From: an uncultured Phocaeicola sp. | GTDB taxonomy: Bacteria > Bacteroidota > Bacteroidia > Bacteroidales > Bacteroidaceae | Direction: 5' to 3' | DNA length: 64,000 bases | Assembly (NCBI GenBank): GCA_944319745.1 | Contig: CALUET010000019.1 | Span: forward strand, 1,064-65,063 | Part shown: positions 10,049 through 46,413 of the stretch, piece after piece | Numbering within the stretch: the stretch's first letter is position 1 | Layout of the letters: every line of letters begins with the position of its first letter | The notes under the pieces: model-generated | Databases searched by the model: none | Told to the model about the DNA's origin: nothing | The model's input: only the letters and a program-made list of their open reading frames with translations | Translations under genes and position numbers: made by a program

Positions 10049-11017
10049 TTAAAAAGCAGAAGGTTTCAGTCTGAGTCCTACTGTTTCTTCAAGGTTAAAC
10101 ATTAAATTCATATTGTGTACGGCTTGTCCGCTTGCTCCTTTCAGTAAATTATCTATGCATGATACGATGAGCAGCTTGTTGCCGTGCTTCTCTAAATGCA
10201 ACAAACATTTGTTTGTATTGACAACTTGTTTCAGGTCGATGCTGTTCTCTACGATGTGTACAAAAGAGTCTTTCGCATAATAGTCCTCGTAGATTTTGAC
10301 GATTTCCGACAGCTCCACTTTCGTTTTTACCACGATTGTTGCAAAAATGCCTCGGGCGAAGTCTCCTCGGTACGGGATGAAATCGATTTCCGACTCGAAA
10401 CTGTTCTGAAGTTGTTTCAGCGATTGTTTGATTTCCGGCACATGTTGATGTGCAAAGGGCTTGTAAATGCTGATATTGTTATTCCTCCAACTGAAATGTG
10501 TGCTTGCACCTGGTTTTACTCCCGCGCCGGTACTTCCCGTAATCGCGTTGACAGTGATGTCGTCGTTTAGCATCAAATGTTTTGCCAGCGGCAGTAATCC
10601 CAGTTGGATGCACGTGGCGAAACATCCCGGATTGGCTATATGTTTGCTGTGGCAGATGGTACGTCTGTTTAATTCCGGCAGGCCGTATACGAAATCATGA
10701 TTCTCGCTTTTTATGCGGTAGTCCATGGAAAGGTCTACAATCTTCAGGTCTTCCGGTACGGAATGACTCTCTAAGAACTTTTTCGTATCGCCATGAGCCG
10801 TGCAGAAGAAAAGTACGTCTATCGTGTCAAGTGGAAGCGAGTCGGTAAAAACCAAATCGGTTTCTCCATATAACCCCTCGTGTACATCCGTAATTTTATT
10901 GCCCGCATTGCTGGTACTGTTTACGAATTTAATTTCTACTTCCGGGTGGTTTATGAGTAAACGAAGCAATTCTCCGGCCGTATATCCTGCACCTCCTATG
11001 ATTCCTGCTTTTATCAT
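10049..11017 (-). CDS. argC: N-acetyl-gamma-glutamyl-phosphate reductase
   Basis: GGAGYTAGEL, YGLPE, IANPGCFAT, IDNLLKGASGQA. Confidence 0.95.
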   Translation of the reverse strand: MIKAGIIGGAGYTAGELLRLLINHPEVEIKFVNSTSNAGNKITDVHEGLYGETDLVFTDSLPLDTIDVLFFCTAHGDTKKFLESHSVPEDLKIVDLSMDYRIKSENHDFVYGLPELNRRTICHSKHIANPGCFATCIQLGLLPLAKHLMLNDDITVNAITGSTGAGVKPGASTHFSWRNNNISIYKPFAHQHVPEIKQSLKQLQNSFESEIDFIPYRGDFARGIFATIVVKTKVELSEIVKIYEDYYAKDSFVHIVENSIDLKQVVNTNKCLLHLEKHGNKLLIVSCIDNLLKGASGQAVHNMNLMFNLEETVGLRLKPSAF

Positions 11018-12222
11018 ATATTTTCTTCGTCTTTATGGTTTGCATAATAAGCGCGCAGCGGTGTGGAGAGAACTTTTATGAAACCTTTTGCATCTTCGGC
11101 GGTCCATCCTTTCTGCATCTCGCCGTATTCGCCGAACTTATTCTTTACGAGGTCGTCTTTTGAGTCAACTCCTACGGTAGAGAACGAGTAAGGGCGAAGT
11201 TCAAGAATCGCTGTTCCGTTTACGTTGCGCTGAGATTTCTCTAACATGGCTTCGATGTCTCGCATAACCGGTTCCAGGTATTGGCTCTCGTGAAGGAACA
11301 TTCCGTACCAATTGGCGACTTGATCTTTCCAATATTGTTGCCACTTGCTTAAAGTATATTTCTCCAAAAATTTATGAGCTCCTATTATTAGCATCGGAGC
11401 GGCGGCTTCAAATCCTACACGTCCTTTGATGCCTATGATGGTATCTCCCACGTGCATGTCACGTCCGATGCCGTATGCTGATCCGATTTCCTCGACTTTT
11501 TGTATGGCTTTTATTTTGTCTTCGAAAATTTCTCCGTTTACGGCGTGCAGTTCGCCCTTTTGAAATTCCAGTTTCAATTGCTCGCTTCCTGATTTTTTTA
11601 CTTGTTTCAGGTAAGCGCTTTCGGGCAATCCTTGTGTGGAATCCAGTATCTCTCCACCACAGATTGAGGTTCCCCATATACCTACGTTGTAGGAATATTT
11701 CAATTTGGTGAAGTCGGCTTCGAAACCATGTTCTTTTAAATAGTTTATTTCATAGTCGCGGCTTAAAGCCATGTCACGCGTCAGTGTGATAATCTCCACG
11801 TTCGGCACCATGACAAGAAACGTCATGTCGAAACGAACCTGGTCATTTCCGGCTCCTGTTGAGCCGTGAGCGATAGCATGCGCGCCGATCTCATTTGCAT
11901 AACGGGCTATTGCCAGAGCCTGGAAGATGCGTTCCGAACTTACGGAAATGGGGTAAGTACCGTTACGCAAAACGTTCCCAAAGACCATATATTTCAAGCT
12001 TTTTTCATAATATTCATGCGTTACGTCTAAAGTTACGTATTTTACGGCTCCGAGTTTGTAGGCGTTTTGTTCGTTTTGTTTCAGTTGTTCCGGGCTAAAA
12101 CCTCCGGTATTGGCGCAAGCTGCATAAACTTCATAACCTTTTTCTTTGGTCAAATACATAACGGTAAACGATGTATCTAACCCGCCGCTGAAAGCAACGA
12201 CCACTTTTTTCTTTTCTTCCAT
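11014..12222 (-). CDS. argG: Argininosuccinate synthase
   Basis: VVAFSGGLDTS, AHGSTGAGNDQVRF. Confidence 0.95.
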   Translation of the reverse strand: MEEKKKVVVAFSGGLDTSFTVMYLTKEKGYEVYAACANTGGFSPEQLKQNEQNAYKLGAVKYVTLDVTHEYYEKSLKYMVFGNVLRNGTYPISVSSERIFQALAIARYANEIGAHAIAHGSTGAGNDQVRFDMTFLVMVPNVEIITLTRDMALSRDYEINYLKEHGFEADFTKLKYSYNVGIWGTSICGGEILDSTQGLPESAYLKQVKKSGSEQLKLEFQKGELHAVNGEIFEDKIKAIQKVEEIGSAYGIGRDMHVGDTIIGIKGRVGFEAAAPMLIIGAHKFLEKYTLSKWQQYWKDQVANWYGMFLHESQYLEPVMRDIEAMLEKSQRNVNGTAILELRPYSFSTVGVDSKDDLVKNKFGEYGEMQKGWTAEDAKGFIKVLSTPLRAYYANHKDEENI

Positions 12223-12249
12223 AATAAAATATCTTTAAAAGTTATGTAA

Positions 12250-12816
12250 TCAGAAGTTGGTAATTTTGTCATCCATGTGCAGGGCCGGATCATAAAGCAT
12301 GGCAGTGCAGATGCAGAATTTGCGTTTTTTCGCCATCAGAATTTCGTGATTAATGCATCCTTCACAGCCTTTCCAGAACGATTCATCGTCGGTTAGTTCA
12401 TTGAATGTGACGGGAACATATCCCAGTTCCGTATTCATTTTCATGACAGCGGCTCCTGAAGTGAGACTGAAGATCTTGGCTTTCGGCCATCGGAGACGTG
12501 CCAATGTGAAAGATGCGTGCTTGATTCTTTTGGCCAAGCCGAGGCCACGGTATTTAGGATGGACAATCAAACCGGAAGTTGCAACGTATTGTTTGTTTCC
12601 CCATGATTCGATGTATGTAAATCCTGCGAAATCGTTTCCGCACAAAGCTATAATTGCTTTTCCTTCTTTCATCTTTGTTGCCACGTATTCATGCGTACGT
12701 TCTGCAATACCCGTGCCGCGAACTTTTGCAGCTTCCCGTATGGTATCAAGAATGGTGTCTACATATACCTCGTGTGAGGCGTCGGCTACCATGACATCGA
12801 TTTGTTTATTATCCAT
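12250..12816 (-). CDS. GNAT N-acetyltransferase (Bacteroidetes-type N-acetylglutamate synthase candidate)
   Basis: GNAT motif A IVHPKYRGLGLA, FWKGCEGC; position between argR and argG. Confidence 0.75.
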   Translation of the reverse strand: MDNKQIDVMVADASHEVYVDTILDTIREAAKVRGTGIAERTHEYVATKMKEGKAIIALCGNDFAGFTYIESWGNKQYVATSGLIVHPKYRGLGLAKRIKHASFTLARLRWPKAKIFSLTSGAAVMKMNTELGYVPVTFNELTDDESFWKGCEGCINHEILMAKKRKFCICTAMLYDPALHMDDKITNF

Positions 12817-12834
12817 AGTTCTTTCGTTTCTATT

Positions 12835-13317
12835 TTATAATTGGTTTATGTTCGGTATAATATGAGACAGGGATTTTTTCAGACTTTCCCGAGAACATCC
12901 TTCCCGCATGATTAGCATGATTGTATCATCTCCTGCAATAGTTCCTATGATTTCCAGGAAGAGATTGTTGTCTATGTCGTAGGCTAAACTGCTGGCATAT
13001 CCGGGTTTTGTTTTTATAACGGCGATGTTTCCGGAGAAATCGATCGATATAAATCCGTTGTGACGTAGCATTTCTGTTGCGGAATGGGCGTCTGTTACCC
13101 GTTTATACATGGTGTTGTTTGGCAAAACATAGATGTAGTTTCCGCTCATGCCGGCGGCTTTTGCAACTTTCAGTTGTTTTAAGTCGCGGGAAAGTGTGGC
13201 TTGCGTTACTTGGAAGCCTTCCTCGGAAAGAGCTTGCAATAACTCTCCTTGGTTACTTATTTCCCGGCTCGATATGATAATCTTTATAGCATCCAGTCGA
13301 TTTTTCTTTGTACTCAT
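12835..13317 (-). CDS. argR: Arginine repressor
   Basis: VTQATLSRDL, GTIAGDDT motifs. Confidence 0.95.
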   Translation of the reverse strand: MSTKKNRLDAIKIIISSREISNQGELLQALSEEGFQVTQATLSRDLKQLKVAKAAGMSGNYIYVLPNNTMYKRVTDAHSATEMLRHNGFISIDFSGNIAVIKTKPGYASSLAYDIDNNLFLEIIGTIAGDDTIMLIMREGCSRESLKKSLSHIIPNINQL

Positions 13318-37816: not shown

Positions 37817-38254
37817 TTAATGAATTTCGATCACTCGGTTAACTTTCGCTTTGTCTTCCGGTGCCCGTTTCGGCAAATCAATCGTCAAAACGCCATTGTT
37901 GACGTTGGCTGTGATTTTGTCTTTCTCGACATCATCAGGCAAAACCAAGGATTGTTCGAATTTCGCATAAGAGAATTCACGGCGTAAGTATTTCTTCTTT
38001 TTATTGTCTTCATCCTTCGTTTCGTCTTTTTTCTCCATGCTGATTACCAACTCGTTGTTGTCTCCCAAATGAATGTTGAAATCATCTTTCGACATACCTG
38101 CAGCGGCAACTTCGATTTTGTAGTTTTTTTCATCTTCAATTACATTGATAGCAGGAGCAGTTGTATTCATTTTTACTACCCAATCGTTATCAAAGAAATC
38201 ATTGAAAATACTCGGTAACCAATTCTGATTGTTGTAATTTCTCATCGGCATCAT
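37817..38254 (-). CDS. Hsp20/alpha-crystallin small heat shock protein
   Basis: PAINVIE, YLRREFSY, NGVLTIDLPK. Confidence 0.93.
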   Translation of the reverse strand: MMPMRNYNNQNWLPSIFNDFFDNDWVVKMNTTAPAINVIEDEKNYKIEVAAAGMSKDDFNIHLGDNNELVISMEKKDETKDEDNKKKKYLRREFSYAKFEQSLVLPDDVEKDKITANVNNGVLTIDLPKRAPEDKAKVNRVIEIH

Positions 38255-38342
38255 AGTTGTAATCTCCTATATTTTATTGTTTTTATTTATACGTTTTCTT
38301 GAATCTCTCAGCCTTTCGGCTTCGCGATTCGCTTAATAAATT

Positions 38343-38356
38343 GCAATATGTATGCC
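38343..38356 (-). promoter_or_regulatory. Putative sigma54 (-24/-12) promoter of hsp20
   Basis: Minus strand AGGCATACATATTGCA = GG-N10-GC. Confidence 0.55.
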
Positions 38357-39002
38357 TGAACGACACTTTGTCAGTTAGATTCCCTGGCGTTTAAACTTAA
38401 GAAAACTTCTTTAAAAATTGGCAAAAGGTATTTAAACTTTAGTAAATATTATTTACAATATTGAGGAAAATGATACCGACAATCTGTCTTTTCCGACTGT
38501 CAGTTTTACATGAACATCCGGACGTTTCTTATCGGTAAATGGCGGATATGAGACAGGCTGCGGGGAGTATTGTTTCTCGTCGCTTGGAGAAATATGACGG
38601 ATGAAAACGATAGCAGAGGGCATGCAAGGGCGTGAGATAAGAAATAGCTCCCGATGTTTGGCGTGAAGACAATGTTTCCACATGTCTTTTTTCTTCGTTA
38701 AGATGCTTTTGTGATACGGTAAAACGTGATTCCCCATAGGGCATAAGGAATGTAGAGAGCTCGTTGTTTTGAGCATCTGTTTCGGGCTTTTGGTAAATAT
38801 CCGGTGCTGTTTTAAGAAAAGGATAGGGACGTGTTGCGCTGTTTCCCGTTTTGGAACGGAACAAAGTATCGCATTATATTCCGGCCTTCTATGCGCTCTT
38901 TTCAGAATATTTGCTGTGGTATGTTGGTAAATGTCTGCATCTTTTTGTTATTTTTGTTCTTATTATCGGCAGATGTATGTGTGCAGATAGTGCAAAAGGG
39001 CT

Positions 39003-39010
39003 TATGTTTG
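39003..39010 (+). promoter_or_regulatory. -7 promoter element (TATGTTTG) for the nuclease-TGT-MTase operon
   Basis: Matches TAnnTTTG about 30 bp upstream of the first ORF; -33 element not clear. Confidence 0.45.
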
Positions 39011-39041
39011 CCTTGAAAGTTTCAAGTATGGATATTTTTTA

Positions 39042-39470
39042 GTGGGAATGATGGAGGTCGGATTTGAGCAGGCTTTTTTTGAAGCTCTTAAGCGAAAATA
39101 TAAATTAAGGATAGAAGAAGCGAATTTCGCAGGGGAGAATATCCCTAAATATCTCTTGCTTGACAGCACACGTAATATTCATTCTTATTTAATACTGTGT
39201 TGTGAGCATCAGGGAATGCTGTTGAGTAATTATTGGGATGGAATAAATGCTAAAAAACAAATCGTTAAATTGCTTCGGATACAGTATTCGCAGTTGGACC
39301 GCCCCCTGTTCTTTTTCCTGAAATTGGAGGGTGGAGAAACGAGGATAATAGAAAGCGAAGTGATGAGGTACGAATTGTTGCAGTCGCCCGACTGTGATAT
39401 TATGGAATTTATGATGGATATGTCTGAGCCGATGTCGGGTGTTTTGTCTAAAATAAAAAACGAGTTATGA
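39042..39470 (+). CDS. Hypothetical protein, first gene of the putative defence operon
   Basis: 142 aa; stop overlaps the next start (ATGA); no motif recognised. Confidence 0.7.
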   Translation: MGMMEVGFEQAFFEALKRKYKLRIEEANFAGENIPKYLLLDSTRNIHSYLILCCEHQGMLLSNYWDGINAKKQIVKLLRIQYSQLDRPLFFFLKLEGGETRIIESEVMRYELLQSPDCDIMEFMMDMSEPMSGVLSKIKNEL

Positions 39471-40258
39471 ATCAGGATGTGGCATTGTATAAAGAATTGG
39501 TGGACTTCTGTAACACGCATCAAGAGCAGATAGAAGTTAAATTTAAGAGGAATTTGGAATTTACGCCTTTGAATGAAGACTGTTACCGGGAAATGTTTTG
39601 CAACCAGAGACACACCGATGCTCCTTTATCGGTGAAAGAGTTGAAAGCAAAGATCCCGGGATTGGCGGAAGCATATAAAAGGAACGGTGCTTACTTTATG
39701 CAGAAGCGCAACGAATATATAAAAGGGTTGGACATTCAAAAAGGGCAGTGGTATGAAAAAGCACTGCAGCGATTTCTGGGGACGAAAGGCGTAACTGTGG
39801 TGAAAAAAGGGCCTCCTTATCCCGATTTTGAGGTAACAATTGATGGAAAACTCGTAGGGTATTATGAACTTAAATATATAGAATCTCCTTTTCTGACAGC
39901 CAATGTGAAGATAAAAAACACCTATCCGTATGAAACAACCAGGTATGATTACGAAGCTTCTTTGACATTGGATACAGGAAATAAGATGAAGAATCAACGA
40001 GTGAAAATCCAAGGATTATTAAAAGAAAACATTCCTGTGTATTATGTTTGGTGGTACAACTGTTTTCATATCAAGGGGATTTTTGCAATGGCGGCGGAAG
40101 ATGTTTTCGATTATTATGATCATTTGGGAGGAGATCTCCTTCAAAGGAAAACAAGGGCCGGCGACAAGGAAACCCATCAAGAGGTTGGGAAAATATATCC
40201 CCCGCTGTTAAATATGTTGACGTTCTGCGAATTGATATCGGATTATTATGGTTCATAA
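39467..40258 (+). CDS. PD-(D/E)xK restriction-endonuclease-like protein
   Basis: GQWYEK (helix E) ..PYPDFEVTIDGKLVGYYELK (PD-x13-ELK); adjacent to DNA methyltransferases. Confidence 0.72.
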   Translation: MNQDVALYKELVDFCNTHQEQIEVKFKRNLEFTPLNEDCYREMFCNQRHTDAPLSVKELKAKIPGLAEAYKRNGAYFMQKRNEYIKGLDIQKGQWYEKALQRFLGTKGVTVVKKGPPYPDFEVTIDGKLVGYYELKYIESPFLTANVKIKNTYPYETTRYDYEASLTLDTGNKMKNQRVKIQGLLKENIPVYYVWWYNCFHIKGIFAMAAEDVFDYYDHLGGDLLQRKTRAGDKETHQEVGKIYPPLLNMLTFCELISDYYGS

Positions 40259-41519
40259 ATTTTATTTTACAAACAATCTTGGCGGAGGCGGCACAAATGT
40301 TAGCCGTCTTGTCGACTATAAACAGTTGTTGGACTTGCCAAATATCGGACTATTGCTTAATTATTATTACCTGACCGGGCAGTCGGTTCCGAAGTTTGAT
40401 GCTTATGTCATAGATAAAATACGCCGATACGCTTCCATAGGCGATTTCTTGAATGGTGCAAGAAAAATGTTTGCTGCAAGAAGGAGAACTTCGGCATATT
40501 TTGTAAAGTCGGCGGGCGATTCGAAGATGTCCGGCTATATGTTGGACAACGGCTGCGGAAATATTTTGCGGGACCTGCTGAGAAGTGGGCGTTATAATGC
40601 TGATTCCATAAAGAAAATAATTAAGCCTTTTCTTGATTTTTCGGAATCGATGCAGTTTGATTACTCCATTGCTTTGGATCTGGCGATGAAATATACTTAC
40701 AAAAGTAAGGAAACGATTGATGAAAAGTTAACGGATTTGTGGACACAGTTGTCGCAGAATGAAGCTGAAAATCTGGCCTTGATTGAAGCAACTTTAGATG
40801 TTATGCGCGAGAATTCATATTCGCGAGGTATTTATGCTCCGTTGCATGGATTTAATTATGAATCCTTTTGCGATTATGTAAACATGGTCAAAAAACTTGA
40901 AGATGAAAAGGGCGTTTCTTTCACCGGATTGGCTTTGGGCGGTATAGCTGATGCCAGAAAATTGGAAAATGAACTATGGGGTGTGCCCAAAAACATTAGG
41001 CAAGATTTAAAAACGGGGTATATCGTGTCTAAATTGTGCGAGGCTGTTAAAAAGATAGACAACAGACCTTTGCATGTATTGGGCGCAGGTAATATTTTTG
41101 TCTTGCCGTTTATTGTGCATGCCGGCGCTTCATCTTCTGATTGTCATTCGGCATGGAGAAGATCTTCCGACGGCGGATATGAAAAAGCCAAGGTCTTAAT
41201 ACCATTATTAAATAGTGACTTAGATTTCATTAATTCGGAGAATTGTTTGCAGTATGTACGCATATGCGACTTGGATGAACGTTATCATTTTGAATCTGAA
41301 ATACCAATAACAGATTTGAAAAAGCTATTCCTCTCTCATAACAAGGAAGATTTTTATTTTGCAGAAATATTTACTTTTGTTTTGGCTATTAGGCAATATG
41401 ATTTATTGATTCGCTATATGGAGAACAATCCAAACGATTATTTGGAAAAACTTTGCCACACTCCCGATTGTGATTTTAACGTGAAGCATCTGACTTTGAT
41501 TTCGGCCTTAAATTTGTAA
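40248..41519 (+). CDS. tRNA-guanine transglycosylase (TGT/DpdA)-like protein without CxCxxC zinc motif
   Basis: Collinear TGT motifs: LLLNYYYL, MLDNGCGN (DSGG-like), SIALDLA, APLHG, FTGLALGGIA, RPLHVLGAG, AGASSSDCHSAWR. Confidence 0.75.
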   Translation: MVHKFYFTNNLGGGGTNVSRLVDYKQLLDLPNIGLLLNYYYLTGQSVPKFDAYVIDKIRRYASIGDFLNGARKMFAARRRTSAYFVKSAGDSKMSGYMLDNGCGNILRDLLRSGRYNADSIKKIIKPFLDFSESMQFDYSIALDLAMKYTYKSKETIDEKLTDLWTQLSQNEAENLALIEATLDVMRENSYSRGIYAPLHGFNYESFCDYVNMVKKLEDEKGVSFTGLALGGIADARKLENELWGVPKNIRQDLKTGYIVSKLCEAVKKIDNRPLHVLGAGNIFVLPFIVHAGASSSDCHSAWRRSSDGGYEKAKVLIPLLNSDLDFINSENCLQYVRICDLDERYHFESEIPITDLKKLFLSHNKEDFYFAEIFTFVLAIRQYDLLIRYMENNPNDYLEKLCHTPDCDFNVKHLTLISALNL

Positions 41520-41574
41520 ATCGCTTGTGGCATTGGGAAAATAGATGTAGTTTTACATACTATAATAGGTAAGA

Positions 41575-42339
41575 ATGGATAAAATCTATAATCATAGTAG
41601 TGAGTTTATGCCCGAATTGCCGGACAAATGTGTCTCGTTAATGGTAACTTCTCCTCCTTATAATATAGATATTCGGTATGGGAATGAATGGAAAAACGGG
41701 CGTGTTACGAAAAGTAAAGGCAAGAAATATGCCGACAGATTGGAGGAAGAAGAGTATAGGAAGATGTTGTTTAATGTTTTTAATGAGACAAAGAGAGTTC
41801 TGAAAGACGATGGACAGCTTTGGTTGAATATCAAGAATCGGTGCGTAGATGGTAATATTATTCCTCCTTTTTGGGTAATGGATTACTTTAACGATATGTT
41901 CCTGAAGAACATTATTATCTGGAATTTTGATTGGGGAGGCTCGACAAACAAGCGTTTTTCCTCGAGGTATGAATATGTTTTCTTCTTTACGAAAGATGAT
42001 AAGAAGTATACTTTTAATTTGGATGATGTAAAGATTCCGGCGCTCAACTATCGTCCTGACAGATATAAAAACCAACTGAAGAATCCTACGGACGTCTGGA
42101 AAATATCATTGGTTAGCGGAAATTCTTTGGAAAGAACAGAACATCCGGCGCAATATCCGGAAGAATTAATAGAGAGAATCGTCAAAGTTGGAACAAACAA
42201 GGGCGATTTGGTTTTAGACCCGTTCATGGGAAGTGGGACAACAGCTGTCGTTGCAAAGAGGTTGGAAAGGCAATATGTGGGATATGAGATTGAGAAGGAA
42301 TTTATAGATATATCGGAAAAAAGGTTAGCAGATGTCTAA
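41575..42339 (+). CDS. Beta-class DNA amino-methyltransferase (N4-mC or N6-mA), M1
   Basis: VTSPPYN (motif IV), HPAQYP, VLDPFMGSGTT (motif I). Confidence 0.92.
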   Translation: MDKIYNHSSEFMPELPDKCVSLMVTSPPYNIDIRYGNEWKNGRVTKSKGKKYADRLEEEEYRKMLFNVFNETKRVLKDDGQLWLNIKNRCVDGNIIPPFWVMDYFNDMFLKNIIIWNFDWGGSTNKRFSSRYEYVFFFTKDDKKYTFNLDDVKIPALNYRPDRYKNQLKNPTDVWKISLVSGNSLERTEHPAQYPEELIERIVKVGTNKGDLVLDPFMGSGTTAVVAKRLERQYVGYEIEKEFIDISEKRLADV

Positions 42340-43180
42340 ATATTTTGGTTCAAAACAAGAGAATGTATATAAAATAGGTAATTGTTTTTTTACAATATCC
42401 GATTGTATTGAAACAATGAAGAAGATGCCCAAGGCTGTTGTCAATACAATTGTAACATCTCCCCCGTATAATCTGAATAAAAAATACGGTAAGTATGATG
42501 ACAATAAAAGTTTTGCTGATTGGGAAGCATTGATGGATGAGGTAGCGAAGGCGGCGTGGAATGTATTGGCAGATGATGGAAGTTTCCTGTTAAACGTGTC
42601 TCCCGTTCCGGATAAAAAGACTAAAGAAATCATACCTTTAGACGCTCTTGCATATTTTATATTTAAAAGAAATGGTTATGCTTTGCGGAACAGTATCGTT
42701 TGGCATTTCAATAATATGCAGAATTGTACGAACAGATTAAGTGGAAGATGGGAATCGATATTATGGTTTGTCAAGGACATTGAGAATTATCAGTTTCATC
42801 TGGATGATATAAGAATTCCTTATATAACCCAAAACGATAAGCGCCTGAAAGAAGGAGGCGGCAGAAATCCGACCGATACTTGGCACTTTGATTTGCCGGA
42901 AAGCGACTTTTGGTATTTTAATCGAGTGAATAATATGACGAAAAACAAGCTCGGCTTGACGGAACATCCCTGTATTTTTCCGACACCTATGATTGAAAGA
43001 ATCATCAGAATGACGACGAAAATTGATGATGTTGTTTTAGATCCTTTTTTAGGAAGCGGTACGACTTTGGTTGCAGCGCAGAAGCTCAATAGAATCGGGC
43101 TTGGCATAGAATTGGATGATCGCTTTCGGGAGATTATAGAGAAGCGGGTGATTAATGAATCGGTCGGCTCTTTATTTTAA
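42332..43180 (+). CDS. Beta-class DNA amino-methyltransferase (N4-mC or N6-mA), M2
   Basis: VTSPPYN, HPCIFP, VLDPFLGSGTT; start overlaps the M1 stop. Confidence 0.92.
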   Translation: MSKYFGSKQENVYKIGNCFFTISDCIETMKKMPKAVVNTIVTSPPYNLNKKYGKYDDNKSFADWEALMDEVAKAAWNVLADDGSFLLNVSPVPDKKTKEIIPLDALAYFIFKRNGYALRNSIVWHFNNMQNCTNRLSGRWESILWFVKDIENYQFHLDDIRIPYITQNDKRLKEGGGRNPTDTWHFDLPESDFWYFNRVNNMTKNKLGLTEHPCIFPTPMIERIIRMTTKIDDVVLDPFLGSGTTLVAAQKLNRIGLGIELDDRFREIIEKRVINESVGSLF

Positions 43181-43337
43181 GAATACTGTTCGTATTTTTT
43201 AATGGTGTCGGTTGCCTTTAAAAGCATAACTCTTGAGGGTATCAATGGATGCAGTCGAGGTCGAATGAGCTTTCCCGGGATGATGTAATGCTTTATTTTC
43301 GGGTAAATAGAGAGTTAAAAAAGGAGTTAAGGTTGGG

Positions 43338-43685
43338 TCATTCATGGATTATCTTCTCAATATAATCGCGAATTTGTTCTAATTCAGACCTGTTTGTTGA
43401 AGCTAAAGGCCTTATTTCTCCGCTTTCTGTCCTTATTCTTAATGCATATTTCGTCCTCATAAGAATAGCAAGACCAAACAATAAAAGAGATATTATTAAG
43501 CATACGCTGGAAGAACTGATTGCAGATATTAATAAAAAAACAACGCCAAAGAAAATGGGATATCGTCTAGAGTTTGCTTGTTTTGTTATTATTATTGCAA
43601 CGATTCTGTTCTTGTTTATTCTTATTTGTTCATTTATTATGATAAAATCATGTTCAGCCCTTACATAATTGTTCTTGATATCCAT
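43338..43685 (-). CDS. Small membrane protein, DUF6232-like
   Basis: beta-rich N-terminus, two TM helices, YALRIRTESGE..LAS.NRSELEQIRDYI tail; family call from recollection. Confidence 0.55.
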   Translation of the reverse strand: MDIKNNYVRAEHDFIIINEQIRINKNRIVAIIITKQANSRRYPIFFGVVFLLISAISSSSVCLIISLLLFGLAILMRTKYALRIRTESGEIRPLASTNRSELEQIRDYIEKIIHE

Positions 43686-43774
43686 ATCTGATGTAAAGTT
43701 TAAGGATGTATCAAACCTGTTGTCTTTTTGATAATTTGATACATCCTTTTCTGTTTAAATACCTTATAAGTTTT

Positions 43775-44128
43775 TCAGATTTTCCCTTTCATAAGTTTCT
43801 TGTTATACATGCTTGTTGCAATGGCAGCCCATATTATATGGATAGGCCACGTCAGCAATAGTCCAAATCCAAGTGTGAAAATTCCAACAATAAGATCTAC
43901 AATTATCATGATGATAGCGCCAAGTATGGTAGAATAAAACATTCCTATTGGACCAAAAAGAACAGCGAGTGCGATGGAGATGCCCATACTTTTAGGCGAT
44001 TTAGTAATTACAACGTTAACGTTTTCATTAGTATTTTCCATAAGTTTCAAAATAATGTATAAATATTTTCCTACTCTATTAAAGGTTTTCGGACTATCCT
44101 GTGACAAAGGTATCTTTAAATAATGCAC
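43775..44128 (-). CDS. Small membrane protein (TM2-domain-like start KSMGISIALAVLFGPIGMFY)
   Basis: Three hydrophobic segments; likely start at MENTNEN. Confidence 0.6.
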   Translation of the reverse strand: MHYLKIPLSQDSPKTFNRVGKYLYIILKLMENTNENVNVVITKSPKSMGISIALAVLFGPIGMFYSTILGAIIMIIVDLIVGIFTLGFGLLLTWPIHIIWAAIATSMYNKKLMKGKI

Positions 44129-44685: not shown

Positions 44686-46413
44686 TTATTTGCTTAAAGC
44701 TGTAGCAACGTCTACTGCACAAGCTACTGTACATCCTACCATCGGATTGTTACCGATTCCCAGGAAGCCCATCATTTCTACGTGAGCAGGAACAGAAGAA
44801 GAACCTGCGAACTGAGCGTCTGAGTGCATACGGCCCATGGTGTCGGTCATACCGTAAGACGCCGGTCCGGCTGCCATGTTATCGGGATGTAATGTACGTC
44901 CCGTACCACCTCCTGATGCAACTGAGAAATAAGGTTTGCCTGCAAGCACGCGTTCTTTCTTATATGTGCCGGCTACCGGATGTTGGAAACGAGTGGGATT
45001 TGTAGAGTTTCCCGTTATAGAAACATCTACGCCTTCTTTCCACATGATGGCTACGCCTTCGCGTACGTCATCGGCTCCATAACATTTTACTTTTGCACGC
45101 GGTCCGTCTGAGTAAGCGATTTCACGTACTACTTTTAATTCGCCGGTGTAGTAATCGAATTGTGTTTGCACATAAGTAAATCCGTTGATACGAGAAATAA
45201 TTTGTGCAGCATCTTTTCCCAAACCGTTCAGGATGCAGCGTAAAGGTTCTTTACGTACTTTGTCTGCTTTTGCTGCAATTTTGATTGCACCTTCGGCAGC
45301 TGCGAATGATTCATGTCCGGCCAAGAAAGCAAAACATTTCGTTTCTTCGCGTAAAAGCATTGCTGCCAAGTTTCCGTGTCCCAAACCAACTTTACGGTCG
45401 TCTGCGACAGAACCGGGGATACAAAACGATTGTAAACCGATACCGATGGCTTCAGCTGCTTCAGCAGCGTTCTTGCAACCTTTCTTCAATGCAATTGCAC
45501 AACCTACTACGTAAGCCCATTTTGCATTTTCGAAGCAGATCGGTTGAGTTTCTTCACACGTCTTATAAGGATCAAGACCGTATTGTTCGCAGATAGCGTT
45601 TGCTTCTTCGATGTCTTTGATGCCGTTAGCGTTCAATGCCGCAAGGATTTGTTTGATTCGGCGATCTTGGCTTTCAAATTTTACTTCTCTAATCATAATG
45701 TCTTTTCCTCCGTAATCTTTACGTGGATCAATGTATTTAACTGCACCAGCCTCTTTGGTAAAGCGTCCGTATGTTCCTGTTACTTTTTTCAAAGCTTCGT
45801 TTGCATCGGTTCCTTTTTTGATTTCGTCCATGAATTTTCCCAGGTGAACGAATTCATAACCGCAGATCTCATCGTCTTTGTCAAGTGCGATTGTCTTGAT
45901 ATAACCTTCGGCCATTTCAAGATAACGAGGCCCTTTTGCCAATGTTCCGTACAAAGTTCCCACTTGGCTGCGAAGACCTTTTCCTAAATCTTCCAGTCCG
46001 GCACCGATCATCAATCCGCCTTCAGAGAATGCAGATTGCGTACGTCCGTATACGATTTGCAGGAATAATTCACGCATTGCCGTGTTGATTGCATCACAAA
46101 CCAAGTCGGTATTTAATGCTTCGAGAATGGTTTTTCCCGGAAGGATTTCGGATGCCATTGCAGCAGAATGAGTCATTCCGGAGCAACCGATGGTTTCCAC
46201 TAACGCTTCCTGGATAATGCCTTCTTTTACATTCAGGGTTAATTTACAAGCGCCTTGCTGAGGTGCGCACCAACCAATACCGTGAGTTAAACCTGAAATA
46301 TCTTTAATTTCTTTTGATTTAACCCATTTTCCTTCTTCAGGAATTGGAGCCGGACCGTGATTTGGTCCTTTTTTTACAACACACATGTGTTCAACTTCGT
46401 GTGAATAAGTCAT
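44686..46413 (-). CDS. Fe-S scaffold (NifU/IscU-like) domain joined in frame to a GGGtGRT-family protein
   Basis: N-part GWCAPQQGACKLTL..ETIGCSGMTHS..LVCDA; C-part starts MIREVKFES and contains SGGGTGRTLHPDN. Confidence 0.8.
   Translation of the reverse strand: MTYSHEVEHMCVVKKGPNHGPAPIPEEGKWVKSKEIKDISGLTHGIGWCAPQQGACKLTLNVKEGIIQEALVETIGCSGMTHSAAMASEILPGKTILEALNTDLVCDAINTAMRELFLQIVYGRTQSAFSEGGLMIGAGLEDLGKGLRSQVGTLYGTLAKGPRYLEMAEGYIKTIALDKDDEICGYEFVHLGKFMDEIKKGTDANEALKKVTGTYGRFTKEAGAVKYIDPRKDYGGKDIMIREVKFESQDRRIKQILAALNANGIKDIEEANAICEQYGLDPYKTCEETQPICFENAKWAYVVGCAIALKKGCKNAAEAAEAIGIGLQSFCIPGSVADDRKVGLGHGNLAAMLLREETKCFAFLAGHESFAAAEGAIKIAAKADKVRKEPLRCILNGLGKDAAQIISRINGFTYVQTQFDYYTGELKVVREIAYSDGPRAKVKCYGADDVREGVAIMWKEGVDVSITGNSTNPTRFQHPVAGTYKKERVLAGKPYFSVASGGGTGRTLHPDNMAAGPASYGMTDTMGRMHSDAQFAGSSSVPAHVEMMGFLGIGNNPMVGCTVACAVDVATALSK

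What the first reader, a model, noticed from the sequence alone, without database searches (positions are those of the whole stretch)
40248..41519. TGT-like protein keeps catalytic aspartates but lacks the zinc site and has a divergent substrate pocket
By-eye alignment to Zymomonas TGT: MLDNGCGN matches LTDSGGF (Asp102), IALDL matches MAFDE (Asp156), PLHG matches IQQG, LALGGIA matches YAVGGLA, PLHVLGAG matches PHYLMGVG, SSDCHS matches MFDCV (Asp280 nucleophile). The C-terminal CxCxxC..H zinc motif of tRNA-acting TGTs is not present, and DSGG has become DNGC. This suggests an active glycosylase/transglycosylase with a non-canonical nucleic acid substrate or base specificity.
Basis: partly seen in the sequence, partly recalled or inferred. 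Interest (0 to 1): 0.75.

Follow-up and report, generated by a model that had tools for sequence, protein, structure and literature searches.

The report
TGT-like partner of a restriction nuclease
The gene encodes a rare, zinc-less relative of the base-swapping enzyme TGT that always sits beside a DNA-cutting nuclease and two DNA methyltransferases, so it is most likely part of an undescribed restriction-modification system that acts on DNA, not tRNA.

Summary
ORF 40248-41519 (423 aa) is a real TGT-superfamily TIM barrel: AF2 pLDDT 93, and the top Foldseek hits are DpdA, bacterial TGT and ArcTGT. By alignment it keeps the acid/base Asp (D100), the base-reading Asp/His (D144, H200), the GG loop, and the His-Asp nucleophile pair (H276/D298). 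It lacks the CxCxxC...H zinc site.

The zinc site is a secondary loss. Half of the family, the distant members, still has it.

In every informative locus found in bacteria and archaea (about 45), a TGT-like gene lies beside a 260-aa PD-(D/E)XK nuclease gene. The two are co-oriented wherever gene calls were read, with one divergent exception (L019), and they often overlap. Two conserved SPPY (probably N4-cytosine) methyltransferases lie next to them. Bacterial loci usually add a C-type HTH regulator and a small unknown protein.

The methyltransferases are the most conserved components and the TGT-like protein evolves fastest. No 7-deazaguanine biosynthesis genes and no DpdB/DpdC homologues were seen in the loci examined.

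My best reading (about 50%) is that it is the guanine-flipping (trans)glycosylase or reader subunit of a two-part restriction enzyme. Rivals are a DpdA-like self-modifier, a Cap10-like protein-directed enzyme, and an inert scaffold.

The family is rare (44 representatives among 1.8 billion) and unannotated, and I found no description of it. It is testable in Bacteroides cellulosilyticus DSM 14838.

The parts
40248..41519 (+). T: TGT-superfamily TIM-barrel protein (423 aa), zinc-less. Candidate catalytic residues are D100, D144, H200, G231-G232, H276 and D298.
39467..40258 (+). R: 263-aa PD-(D/E)XK nuclease (invariant P119-D120 ... E134-x-K136) with an N-terminal helical domain. Its end overlaps the start of T by 11 nt.
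   Evidence: Invariant motif in 34 homologues. AF2 pLDDT 87.8. Foldseek matches to Hjc, RecU, the SPARDA nuclease, EcoRV and PvuII are weak in E-value (1e-3 to 1e-1) but reach probability 1.0. A TGT-like gene is adjacent in 25 of 25 informative loci of the R-based scan.
39042..39470 (+). S: small conserved protein of unknown function (~140 aa). Invariants include E25, D41-x-TRNI, S83 and LDRP-x-F. Its stop overlaps the start of R (ATGA). It is present in the bacterial cassettes and was not detected in the archaeal ones.
   Evidence: No Pfam or PDB match.
41575..42339 (+). M1: beta-class amino-methyltransferase (PF01555) with motif IV SPPY, so probably N4-cytosine specific.
   Evidence: Best PDB hit is an N4-cytosine MTase, 8S9M. 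SPPY in 43 of 43 orthologues. It is 65-78% identical across the cassettes, apart from two loci (L017, L019) whose best M1 match is only 35-37%.
42332..43180 (+). M2: second PF01555 methyltransferase with motif IV SPPY. It overlaps M1 by 8 nt.
   Evidence: SPPY in 41 of 41 orthologues. It is 55-78% identical across the cassettes.
38949..39010 (+). Two Bacteroidetes-type -7 promoter motifs (TAnnTTTG) upstream of S. They are candidates for the S-R-T promoter. The window has no C (HTH) gene here, unlike most bacterial relatives.
   Evidence: The motif is not enriched in the window overall, so this is suggestive only.
41509..41516 (+). TAAATTTG motif about 60 nt upstream of M1, a candidate separate promoter for M1-M2.
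   Evidence: suggestive only. In many relatives M1-M2 is inverted relative to R-T, which shows it is a separate unit.

Best explanation
The 423-aa protein (T) is the TGT-fold subunit or co-effector of a two-part restriction activity in a Type II-like restriction-modification cassette: (C)-S-R-T plus M1-M2.

Proposed mechanism (inferred, not shown):
1. M1 and M2 place N4-methylcytosine on the two strands of a probably asymmetric site in host DNA.
2. On unmethylated foreign DNA, T binds the site and flips a guanine into its DpdA-like pocket (D144, H200, GG loop).
3. T attacks C1' with D298, held by H276, with D100 as acid/base. This excises or exchanges the base, or forms a covalent intermediate.
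4. The partner nuclease R, a minimal Hjc-like PD-(D/E)XK core with a helical adaptor domain, cuts the DNA.

What is shown: the fold, the conserved catalytic set, the loss of the zinc site, the constant R-T-M1-M2 linkage, and the relative evolutionary rates.

What is inferred: that the substrate is DNA, that T is on the restriction side, that T is a glycosylase or transglycosylase, that the methylation is m4C, and that R and T interact physically.
For: 1. Linkage. Every locus with enough flank has R next to a TGT-like gene plus M1 and M2. This covers 11 contexts found through T homologues, 11 genome loci, 4 contexts found through R homologues and 25 of 25 informative metagenome loci found through R. 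Hosts range from Bacteroidales, Flavobacteriia, Chitinophagales and Caldisericia to DPANN, Bathyarchaeia and Loki archaea.

2. Gene arrangement. R and T are adjacent, and co-oriented wherever gene calls were read. They often overlap (11 nt here), and their order can flip (T-R in L005, L013, L014, L037). M1-M2 is a separate block that is frequently inverted. That is the pattern expected of two subunits plus a separate modification unit.

3. Regulation. In bacterial loci a C-protein-like HTH (LHRTYIGMIERAEKN) heads the S-R-T block. From established knowledge of C-controlled Type II systems, that position marks the delayed, toxic genes.

4. Rates. Identity to the window proteins is M1 65-78%, M2 55-78%, R 30-70% and T from undetectable to 63%. 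REase-side genes typically evolve faster than MTases.

5. Catalytic set. G12-15, H200, G201, G231, G232, H276, L278, G279, D298, W303, R304 and R305 are invariant in 53 of 53 sequences. D100 and D144 are conserved in 52 of 53. The Asp/His/GG/Asp set is still recognisable in the hyper-divergent 375-aa 'X' form; only its central GG-to-nucleophile part aligns significantly. The 'W' form keeps the Asps but has Asn for H200. The 22-residue H-D spacing equals that of DpdA H234-D256, TGT Y258-D280 and Cap10 H226-D248.

6. No supply genes. No preQ0/7-deazaguanine biosynthesis genes and no DpdB/DpdC homologues were seen in the loci whose gene calls were read. No PADLOC model matched.

7. R looks like a cleavage module. 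Its PD-(D/E)XK core is minimal and Hjc-like, with no obvious recognition elaborations. That fits a cleavage module needing a partner for target selection.

8. Horizontal spread. The cassette is a low-GC island (36-38% against about 43%) in a housekeeping context. Its distribution is rare and patchy, as for R-M systems.
Against: - No TGT-fold enzyme is known to act as a restriction glycosylase. Every characterised relative (TGT, ArcTGT, DpdA, Cap10) handles 7-deazaguanines as a base exchanger.
- Co-transcription with R does not exclude a protective modification role.
- The window lacks the C gene.
- The T, X and W partner types are intermingled on the R tree, so R and T need not co-evolve tightly as obligate subunits usually do.
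- The N4-cytosine assignment rests on the SPPY motif and one PDB hit. The recognition site is unknown.
- No R-T complex prediction, 3D superposition or biochemical data were available.
Confidence: 0.5

Rival explanations
1. T is a DpdA-like DNA-modifying transglycosylase. It replaces guanine at specific sites in host DNA with a 7-deazaguanine or another base taken from the cell's own pool. This would add a third self-mark beside the two methylations, and R is blocked by it.
For: The best structural and profile match is DpdA. All DpdA active-site positions except F99 are matched. Like DpdA, T lacks the N-terminal beta lid. The Dpd system itself draws preQ0 from queuosine genes located elsewhere (abstract). 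Zinc-ligand loss has a precedent in phage 9g DpdA.
Against: No DpdB/DpdC, QueC/D/E or FolE genes appear in the loci read. Two dedicated MTases already supply the self-mark. T is linked to R and to the C-controlled block rather than to M1-M2. T is the least conserved component, whereas a modification enzyme that must match R's site would be expected to be constrained. Many hosts are DPANN archaea with reduced metabolism; that they lack preQ0 synthesis is my inference and was not checked.
Confidence: 0.2
2. T works like Cap10 of type IV CBASS. It is a TGT-fold enzyme that holds its partner effector (here R or S) in a complex. It may use transglycosylation to tether or activate that partner on target nucleic acid rather than simply excising a base.
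For: Cap10 is a TGT-family protein that forms a stable complex with its effector. It keeps the same His-Asp pair at a 22-residue spacing, and it is essential for defence. R-T adjacency and overlap suggest a complex. R has an N-terminal helical domain of unknown role.
Against: No QueC-like Cap9 gene is present to attach a deazaguanine to a protein. R starts MNQDVALYKEL and has no Gly-rich N-terminal tail like the CD-NTase motif. The presence of two DNA MTases points to DNA-site discrimination.
Confidence: 0.1
3. T is a catalytically inert scaffold or DNA-recognition subunit. It flips or reads a base to sense methylation state or to position R, without breaking the glycosidic bond.
For: Eukaryotic QTRT2 is a non-catalytic TGT paralogue that serves as a partner subunit (text). 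The stacking aromatic residue (Y106/F99) is replaced by Gly. The zinc site is lost in the window clade.
Against: The nucleophile Asp, its His partner and the acid/base Asp are invariant or nearly so across forms that share under 20% identity. That is hard to explain without catalysis.
Confidence: 0.12
4. T is an ordinary tRNA-modifying TGT that merely happens to lie next to an R-M system.
For: It belongs to the TGT superfamily. JGI labels some relatives 'queuine/archaeosine tRNA-ribosyltransferase'.
Against: The R-T-M1-M2 linkage is constant across two domains of life. The family is very rare, whereas housekeeping TGT is near-universal. The window protein is below the Pfam TGT threshold. It has no zinc site, no PUA or other tRNA-binding domain, and sits on a low-GC island.
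Confidence: 0.03

Closest known systems
DpdA (DNA-guanine transglycosylase / preQ0 insertase of the Dpd system; PDB 7UI4)
   Same: It is the best Foldseek and profile hit. Both are TIM barrels without the N-terminal beta lid. The matched active-site residues are D95, D130, H181-G182, G206-G207, L236 and D256 with the preceding His. Both share a Y-x-K-x-G-E stretch after the second Asp. Both sit in a DNA-defence context.
   Different: Profile E-value is only 0.018. There is no zinc site in the window clade. F99 is replaced by Gly. No DpdB, DpdC or DpdD-K genes are present. The partners are instead a PD-(D/E)XK nuclease and two amino-MTases. T lies in the nuclease block, not in a modification block.
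Bacterial tRNA-guanine transglycosylase (Z. mobilis TGT) and archaeal ArcTGT
   Same: Same fold (TM 0.5-0.58). The residues corresponding to D102, D156, D280-C281 and R286 are kept. The distant half of the family keeps CxCxxC...H.
   Different: H200 replaces Q203 and Gly replaces Y106. There is no zinc in the window protein and no PUA or C-terminal tRNA domains. The window protein falls below the Pfam threshold. The gene context is R-M, not queuosine or archaeosine genes.
Restriction glycosylases (R.PabI family)
   Same: The concept is the same: an R-M system in which a base-excising enzyme, blocked by methylation, damages foreign DNA (cited).
   Different: R.PabI has a half-pipe fold, excises adenine and works alone. 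Here the candidate is a TGT TIM barrel with a guanine-type pocket, always paired with a PD-(D/E)XK nuclease. Glycosylase activity is not shown.
Cap10 of type IV CBASS
   Same: It is a TGT-family enzyme recruited into a defence system as an obligate partner of an effector protein, with a conserved His-Asp pair.
   Different: Cap10 works with QueC-like Cap9 and a CD-NTase that carries a deazaguanylated N-terminus. None of these is present here.
Two-subunit Type II restriction enzymes with two methyltransferases (for example BbvCI, BtsI, BsrDI; from my own knowledge, and reference 57 cited for BbvCI)
   Same: Two adjacent R-side genes plus two MTases, as expected for an asymmetric site.
   Different: In those enzymes both subunits are nucleases. 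Here one subunit is a TGT-fold enzyme.

Membership tests
TGT superfamily (PF01702 fold) | (beta/alpha)8 TGT-type barrel | tested here: met
   AF2 pLDDT 93.2. The top 50 PDB hits are all TGT, DpdA or ArcTGT at probability 1.00. hhalign probability 98.9-99.6%.
TGT superfamily (PF01702 fold) | Pfam PF01702 match | tested here: inconclusive
   The window protein has no hit, even at E<=1. 31 of 53 family members hit, best E 8.4e-25.
Bacterial tRNA-guanine transglycosylase | Catalytic Asp nucleophile (D280), acid/base Asp (D102) and substrate Asp (D156) | tested here: met
   D298, D100 and D144 align to these positions and are conserved in 53, 52 and 52 of 53 sequences. This rests on alignment only, with no 3D superposition.
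Bacterial tRNA-guanine transglycosylase | Structural zinc site CxCxxC...H | tested here: not met
   Absent in the window protein and in 26 of 53 members. Present in the other 27.
Bacterial tRNA-guanine transglycosylase | preQ1/guanine pocket residues Y106 and Q203 | tested here: not met
   G104 is invariant in place of Y106, and H200 is invariant in place of Q203.
Bacterial tRNA-guanine transglycosylase | tRNA G34 base-exchange activity | not testable with these tools
   Needs a biochemical assay.
DpdA (Dpd system) | Active-site set D95, D130, H181-G182, G206-G207, L236, D256 | tested here: met
   The HMM alignment to 7UI4 maps D144, H200-G201, G231-G232, L278 and D298 (numbering). D100 is mapped by hhalign. 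F99 is not matched (Gly).
DpdA (Dpd system) | Zinc site conserved throughout the DpdA family | tested here: not met
   states the site is conserved in DpdA. It is absent here.
DpdA (Dpd system) | Genomic association with dpdB (ParB-like ATPase), dpdC and dpdD-K | tested here: not met
   None of these appears among the called genes and Pfam hits of the loci read. The partners are R, M1 and M2.
DpdA (Dpd system) | Inserts preQ0 into DNA | not testable with these tools
   Needs LC-MS of DNA or an in vitro exchange assay.
Type II restriction-modification system | DNA methyltransferase(s) with catalytic motif IV | tested here: met
   M1 and M2 hit PF01555 at E 1e-59 and 4e-51. SPPY is present in all orthologues.
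Type II restriction-modification system | Adjacent nuclease with a PD-(D/E)XK catalytic motif and fold | tested here: met
   Invariant PD...ExK. Foldseek matches Hjc, RecU, EcoRV and PvuII-type cores at weak E-values.
Type II restriction-modification system | Controller (C) protein upstream of the restriction genes | tested here: not met
   Absent from the window. Present in most bacterial relatives.
Type II restriction-modification system | Methylation-sensitive, site-specific cleavage | not testable with these tools
   Needs enzymology or a methylome.
Restriction glycosylase (R.PabI type) | Half-pipe fold | tested here: not met
   The model is a TIM barrel.
Cap10 (type IV CBASS) | Operon with a QueC-like Cap9 and a CD-NTase | tested here: not met
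   Neither appears in the loci read. The feature is defined.

The most novel reading that the evidence does not exclude
T is the first TGT-fold 'restriction (trans)glycosylase'. In this reading it is a sequence-specific enzyme that flips guanine out of unmethylated foreign DNA. It then removes or exchanges the base, or becomes covalently trapped on the DNA, while its PD-(D/E)XK partner cuts. Two N4-cytosine methyltransferases protect the host. That would be a new chemical mechanism of restriction, built from RNA-modification machinery.
Probability: 0.35. Interest if true: 0.85.

Novelty: new variant of a known kind. Interest (0 to 1): 0.72.

Why it matters
TGT-family enzymes are known as modifiers. 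They install queuosine or archaeosine in tRNA and 7-deazaguanines in DNA, and in Cap10 they handle a deazaguanylated protein. Here a TGT-fold protein with an intact catalytic set is hard-wired to a nuclease inside a methyltransferase-protected cassette, without any deazaguanine supply genes.

If it acts on the restriction side, it would define a new kind of restriction enzyme chemistry: base excision or exchange by a covalent Asp-ribosyl mechanism coupled to a nuclease. It would also add a sequence-specific guanine-flipping DNA enzyme to the available tools.

If it turns out to be a modifier, it would be a minimal DpdB-independent DNA transglycosylase that works without a zinc site.

Either way, the cassette (about 45 loci seen here) is unannotated, labelled 'hypothetical protein' or mislabelled as a tRNA enzyme. 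It is present in a culturable type strain, so the question is directly testable.

Tried and rejected
- **Direct annotation.** Pfam, NCBIfam, PADLOC and PDB phmmer gave nothing for T, R or S. Homology only appeared through family profiles.
- **Mobile-element origin.** There were no relatives in PLSDB plasmids, INPHARED phages or IMG/VR. I dropped a phage DpdA or plasmid origin.
- **Hjc-type resolvase reading of R.** I rejected this as the primary reading because of the constant MTase linkage.
- **The 375-aa 'X' neighbour.** I first took it for an unrelated replacement of T. I rejected that when motif inspection and hhalign (probability 88.9%, E 2.4e-6) showed a hyper-divergent TGT-like protein. 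Likewise L049 seemed to lack a partner until translation showed a third, 'W' type.
- **hhalign against canonical TGT.** It mis-aligned the DSGG region. I used the alignment to DSGG-type intermediates for D100 instead.
- **Literature.** Five searches and six papers read gave no description of a TGT-like protein paired with a PD-(D/E)XK nuclease and two MTases.
- **M1 homologue names.** They gave no specificity.
- **RNA-seq contigs of the B. cellulosilyticus-like organism.** They contain the whole cassette, but their flat contig depth cannot define operons.
- **Promoter and terminator scans.** They were not above shuffled expectation.
- **Recognition-site inference from motif depletion.** Not attempted, because 64 kb is too little sequence.
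Full report
**1. The observation**

The ORF at 40248-41519 (+) is real and encodes 423 aa. The window protein on its own has no significant hit in Pfam, NCBIfam, PADLOC or the PDB sequences. A by-eye TGT call therefore needed testing.

A homologue search found 86 relatives. The closer ones carry no Pfam domain, but those at 28-40% identity carry PF01702. When 53 members were scanned individually, 31 hit PF01702, best E 8.4e-25.

Further support for homology:
- The family profile aligns to canonical bacterial-type TGTs with hhalign probability 98.9% (E 2.2e-17).
- It aligns to a group of DSGG-type TGT-like proteins with probability 99.6% (E 6.8e-25).
- A canonical TGT used as a tblastn query hits only this ORF in the window (E 1.5e-6).
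- An AlphaFold2 model built on the 53-sequence alignment is confident (pLDDT 93.2, pTM 0.92).
- Its PDB Foldseek hits are exclusively TGT-family structures, led by the DNA preQ0 insertase DpdA (7UI4, E 7.7e-9). Z. mobilis TGT (TM about 0.5-0.58) and ArcTGT follow.
- In the viral structure library the hits are phage TGT/DpdA-like proteins at similar scores.

**2. The residues**

The HMM alignment to DpdA, with numbering taken from PMC10164549, gives these correspondences:
- D144 = D130
- H200-G201 = H181-G182
- G231-G232 = G206-G207
- L278 = L236
- D298 = D256

The alignment to Z. mobilis TGT gives these:
- H276 = Y258
- L278 = M260
- G279 = G261
- D298-C299 = D280-C281
- R304 = R286
- the CxCxxC...H columns

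D100 aligns with the Asp of DSGG in the hhalign to DSGG-type relatives.

Across the 53-sequence alignment, G12-G15, H200, G201, G231, G232, H276, L278, G279, D298, C299, W303, R304 and R305 are invariant. D100 and D144 are present in 52 of 53. The His-Asp pair is 22 residues apart, the same spacing as TGT Y258-D280, DpdA H234-D256 and Cap10 H226-D248.

Two pocket differences are real:
- The position four residues after the first Asp is Tyr106 in TGT and Phe99 in DpdA, a stacking or gating aromatic. Here it is an invariant Gly.
- Gln203 of TGT is His here, as in DpdA.

I could not superpose coordinates, so these correspondences are alignment-based.

**3. The zinc site**

The window protein has no CxCxxC, and it has Leu where the His ligand would be. 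This is not a family trait. 27 of 53 members, the distant and mostly archaeal ones, keep CxCxxC and His. The 26 that lack it are the window's Bacteroidales clade (44% identity or more) plus one other.

The loss is therefore secondary, and it happened while the catalytic set stayed invariant. There is a precedent: phage 9g DpdA lacks two of the four zinc ligands (PMC5699537). Salmonella-type DpdA keeps the site.

**4. The neighbourhood, which is the main new finding**

In the window the genes run in this order:
- S: 39042-39470, unknown function.
- R: 39467-40258.
- T: 40248-41519.
- M1: 41575-42339.
- M2: 42332-43180.

There are 4-nt, 11-nt and 8-nt overlaps at S/R, R/T and M1/M2.

R carries an invariant P119-D120 ... 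E134-x-K136 motif across 34 homologues. Its model (pLDDT 87.8) has an N-terminal helical domain and a C-terminal core. That core matches Hjc, RecU, the SPARDA nuclease domain, EcoRV and PvuII; E-values are weak but probabilities reach 1.0.

M1 and M2 are PF01555 beta-class amino-methyltransferases. Both have motif IV SPPY in all orthologues (43 of 43 and 41 of 41). M1's best solved relative is an N4-cytosine methyltransferase. From general knowledge of amino-MTases, SPPY favours N4-cytosine over N6-adenine. This is an inference.

**5. Conservation of the cassette**

Contexts of T homologues, all 11 loci found in 185,579 species genomes, contexts of R homologues and a metagenome scan seeded with R all show the same module. 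One of the 11 genome loci (L022) is a 1.9-kb contig that ends within T, so its methyltransferases could not be checked.

Among the 28 R-seeded metagenome loci, the 25 with enough flanking sequence all have a TGT-like gene next to R. One of these was recognised only after translating the flank.

R and T are adjacent, and co-oriented wherever gene calls were read. The exception is L019, where the R-adjacent TGT-like gene is divergent. Their order can flip. M1-M2 is a separate block, often on the opposite strand. Bacterial loci usually begin with a C-protein-like HTH followed by S. The window lacks the HTH gene. S was not detected in the archaeal loci.

Hosts include:
- Prevotellaceae and Bacteroidaceae, including Bacteroides cellulosilyticus DSM 14838.
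- Kordia, Myroides and Flavisolibacter.
- Chitinophagales and Caldisericia.
- Aenigmatarchaeota, Woesearchaeota, Iainarchaeum and Micrarchaeia.
- Bathyarchaeia and a Loki archaeon.

No relatives were found on plasmids, phages or viral contigs. In the window the cassette is a low-GC stretch (36-38% against about 43%). On one side lie hsp20, dnaJ and mutL; on the other lie a DUF6232 gene and a GGGtGRT gene.

**6. Evolutionary rates and partner types**

Identity to the window's proteins across loci is as follows:

| Protein | Identity range |
|---|---|
| M1 | 65-78% |
| M2 | 55-78% |
| R | 30-70% |
| T | undetectable to 63% |

Next to R homologues of 53-62% identity, the partner is sometimes a 375-aa protein ('X') with no Pfam hit. 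X is still TGT-like. It has the motifs SSGGGAGDW, LLDVGT, TFDIP, AHW, IGGL, HFLGSGG and SVDNTTxYNR, and hhalign gives probability 88.9%.

A third type ('W': IIGWPAGRGEYD ... LLDIGGNRIF ... DSCDVATPWRR) occurs in Micrarchaeia and other loci.

On an R tree the T and X types are intermingled. The partner gene has therefore been exchanged or has diverged in bursts, while M1 and M2, and so presumably the target site, stayed the same. The T-type family itself is small: 44 cluster representatives at E<=1e-30 among 1.84 billion, with a sharp gap before other TGT-like proteins.

**7. Interpretation**

The arrangement is that of a Type II-like restriction-modification cassette. M1-M2 form the modification unit, and (C)-S-R-T form the regulated, potentially toxic unit.

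The following points place T on the restriction side:
- its constant adjacency to R;
- its position in the block headed by the controller protein in relatives;
- its fast evolution;
- the absence of 7-deazaguanine supply genes and DpdB/DpdC partners from the loci read.

The near-invariance of the nucleophile Asp, its His partner, the acid/base Asp and the DpdA-like base-reading Asp/His argues that T is catalytically active. It also argues that T still binds a guanine-type base. This conservation largely holds even between forms that share under 20% identity.

I therefore favour, at about 50%, a two-part restriction activity. T flips and attacks a guanine in unmethylated sites, and R cleaves. 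The minimal Hjc-like core of R fits a cleavage module that relies on a partner. The chemistry (excision, exchange or covalent trapping) and the physical R-T interaction are inferred, not shown.

**8. Rivals**

- **DpdA-like self-modifier using the cell's deazaguanine pool (about 20%).** It is favoured by family precedent. It is disfavoured by the linkage pattern, by the two dedicated MTases and by T being the least conserved part.
- **Cap10-like role (about 10%).** Here the TGT-fold protein acts on or through its partner protein. The precedent is real, but there is no QueC-like gene and no Gly-rich N-terminus on R.
- **Inert reader or scaffold subunit (about 12%).** It is disfavoured by conservation of the catalytic residues.
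- **Housekeeping tRNA enzyme (about 3%).** It is excluded in practice by rarity, context and missing features.

**9. What is known**

PADLOC, NCBIfam and Pfam do not recognise T, R or S. Sources call T 'hypothetical protein' or, in JGI, 'queuine/archaeosine tRNA-ribosyltransferase'.

Literature searches found the following:
- DpdA and phage DpdA.
- TGT domains in BREX-related BRC systems, where they are proposed as modifiers.
- Cap10.
- R.PabI-type restriction glycosylases.

None describes a TGT-like protein paired with a PD-(D/E)XK nuclease and two MTases. The library is incomplete, and REBASE could not be queried, so an existing unpublished REBASE assignment cannot be excluded.

**10. Supporting observations**

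Bacteroidetes-type TAnnTTTG motifs lie just upstream of S and of M1. This is consistent with two transcription units, but the motif is not enriched overall.

RNA-seq assemblies from the organism carrying the L015 cassette contain the whole cassette. In one run a contig starts about 190 nt upstream of S and runs through M2. This is compatible with expression, but it is not proof of operon structure.

**Verdict**

This is a new, rare TGT-superfamily clade in a new variant of a restriction-modification system.

Noticed in passing
window 39042-39470 (+): A small ORF (about 140 aa, 'S') is translationally coupled to the nuclease gene. It is conserved in the bacterial cassettes (invariant E25, D41-x-TRNI, Y49, S83, LDRP-x-F) but has no Pfam or PDB match. 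It was not detected in the archaeal cassettes. It may be a third component of the restriction complex or a regulator.
   Followed up: partly
window 38255-39040: This is about 790 bp with no convincing gene. Most bacterial relatives have a C-protein-like HTH gene (LHRTYIGMIERAEKN) directly upstream of S, and tblastn finds no trace of it here. The window's cassette may therefore be regulated differently or be deregulated.
   Followed up: partly
L023:6782-7909, L024:6791-7927, L026:6604-7728; L025:6783-8045, L049:~940-1405: The nuclease's partner exists in at least three barely alignable TGT-like types: T, a 375-aa 'X' and 'W'. T and X are intermingled on the nuclease tree while M1 and M2 stay 55-78% identical. 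This suggests cassette recombination or bursts of diversifying selection on the TGT-like gene.
   Followed up: partly
L019 (Promethearchaeota Loki_b31) 3-1151(-), 1191-2111(+), 5923-7341(+): This locus carries two TGT-like genes, a W type next to the nuclease and a T type further along. It also has a longer (506 aa), only 35%-identical M1. It is an atypical, possibly composite cassette.
   Followed up: no
L008/L009 (metagenome) 3772-5235 and 10020-13129: In this relative a DUF2779 protein overlaps the start of the nuclease gene. A second MTase (MethyltransfD12) with unknown partners and a GIY-YIG gene lie downstream. The cassette therefore sits in a defence island.
   Followed up: no
window 38000-44000: GC content drops to 36-38% over the cassette, against about 42-48% in the flanks. 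The flanks are housekeeping genes: mutL, dnaJ and hsp20 upstream, and DUF6232 and a GGGtGRT protein downstream. This is consistent with horizontal acquisition.
   Followed up: partly
window 44686-46413 (-): A 575-aa protein with a very strong GGGtGRT-domain match (PF14057, E 1.7e-191) lies just downstream of the island. It is unrelated to the finding.
   Followed up: no
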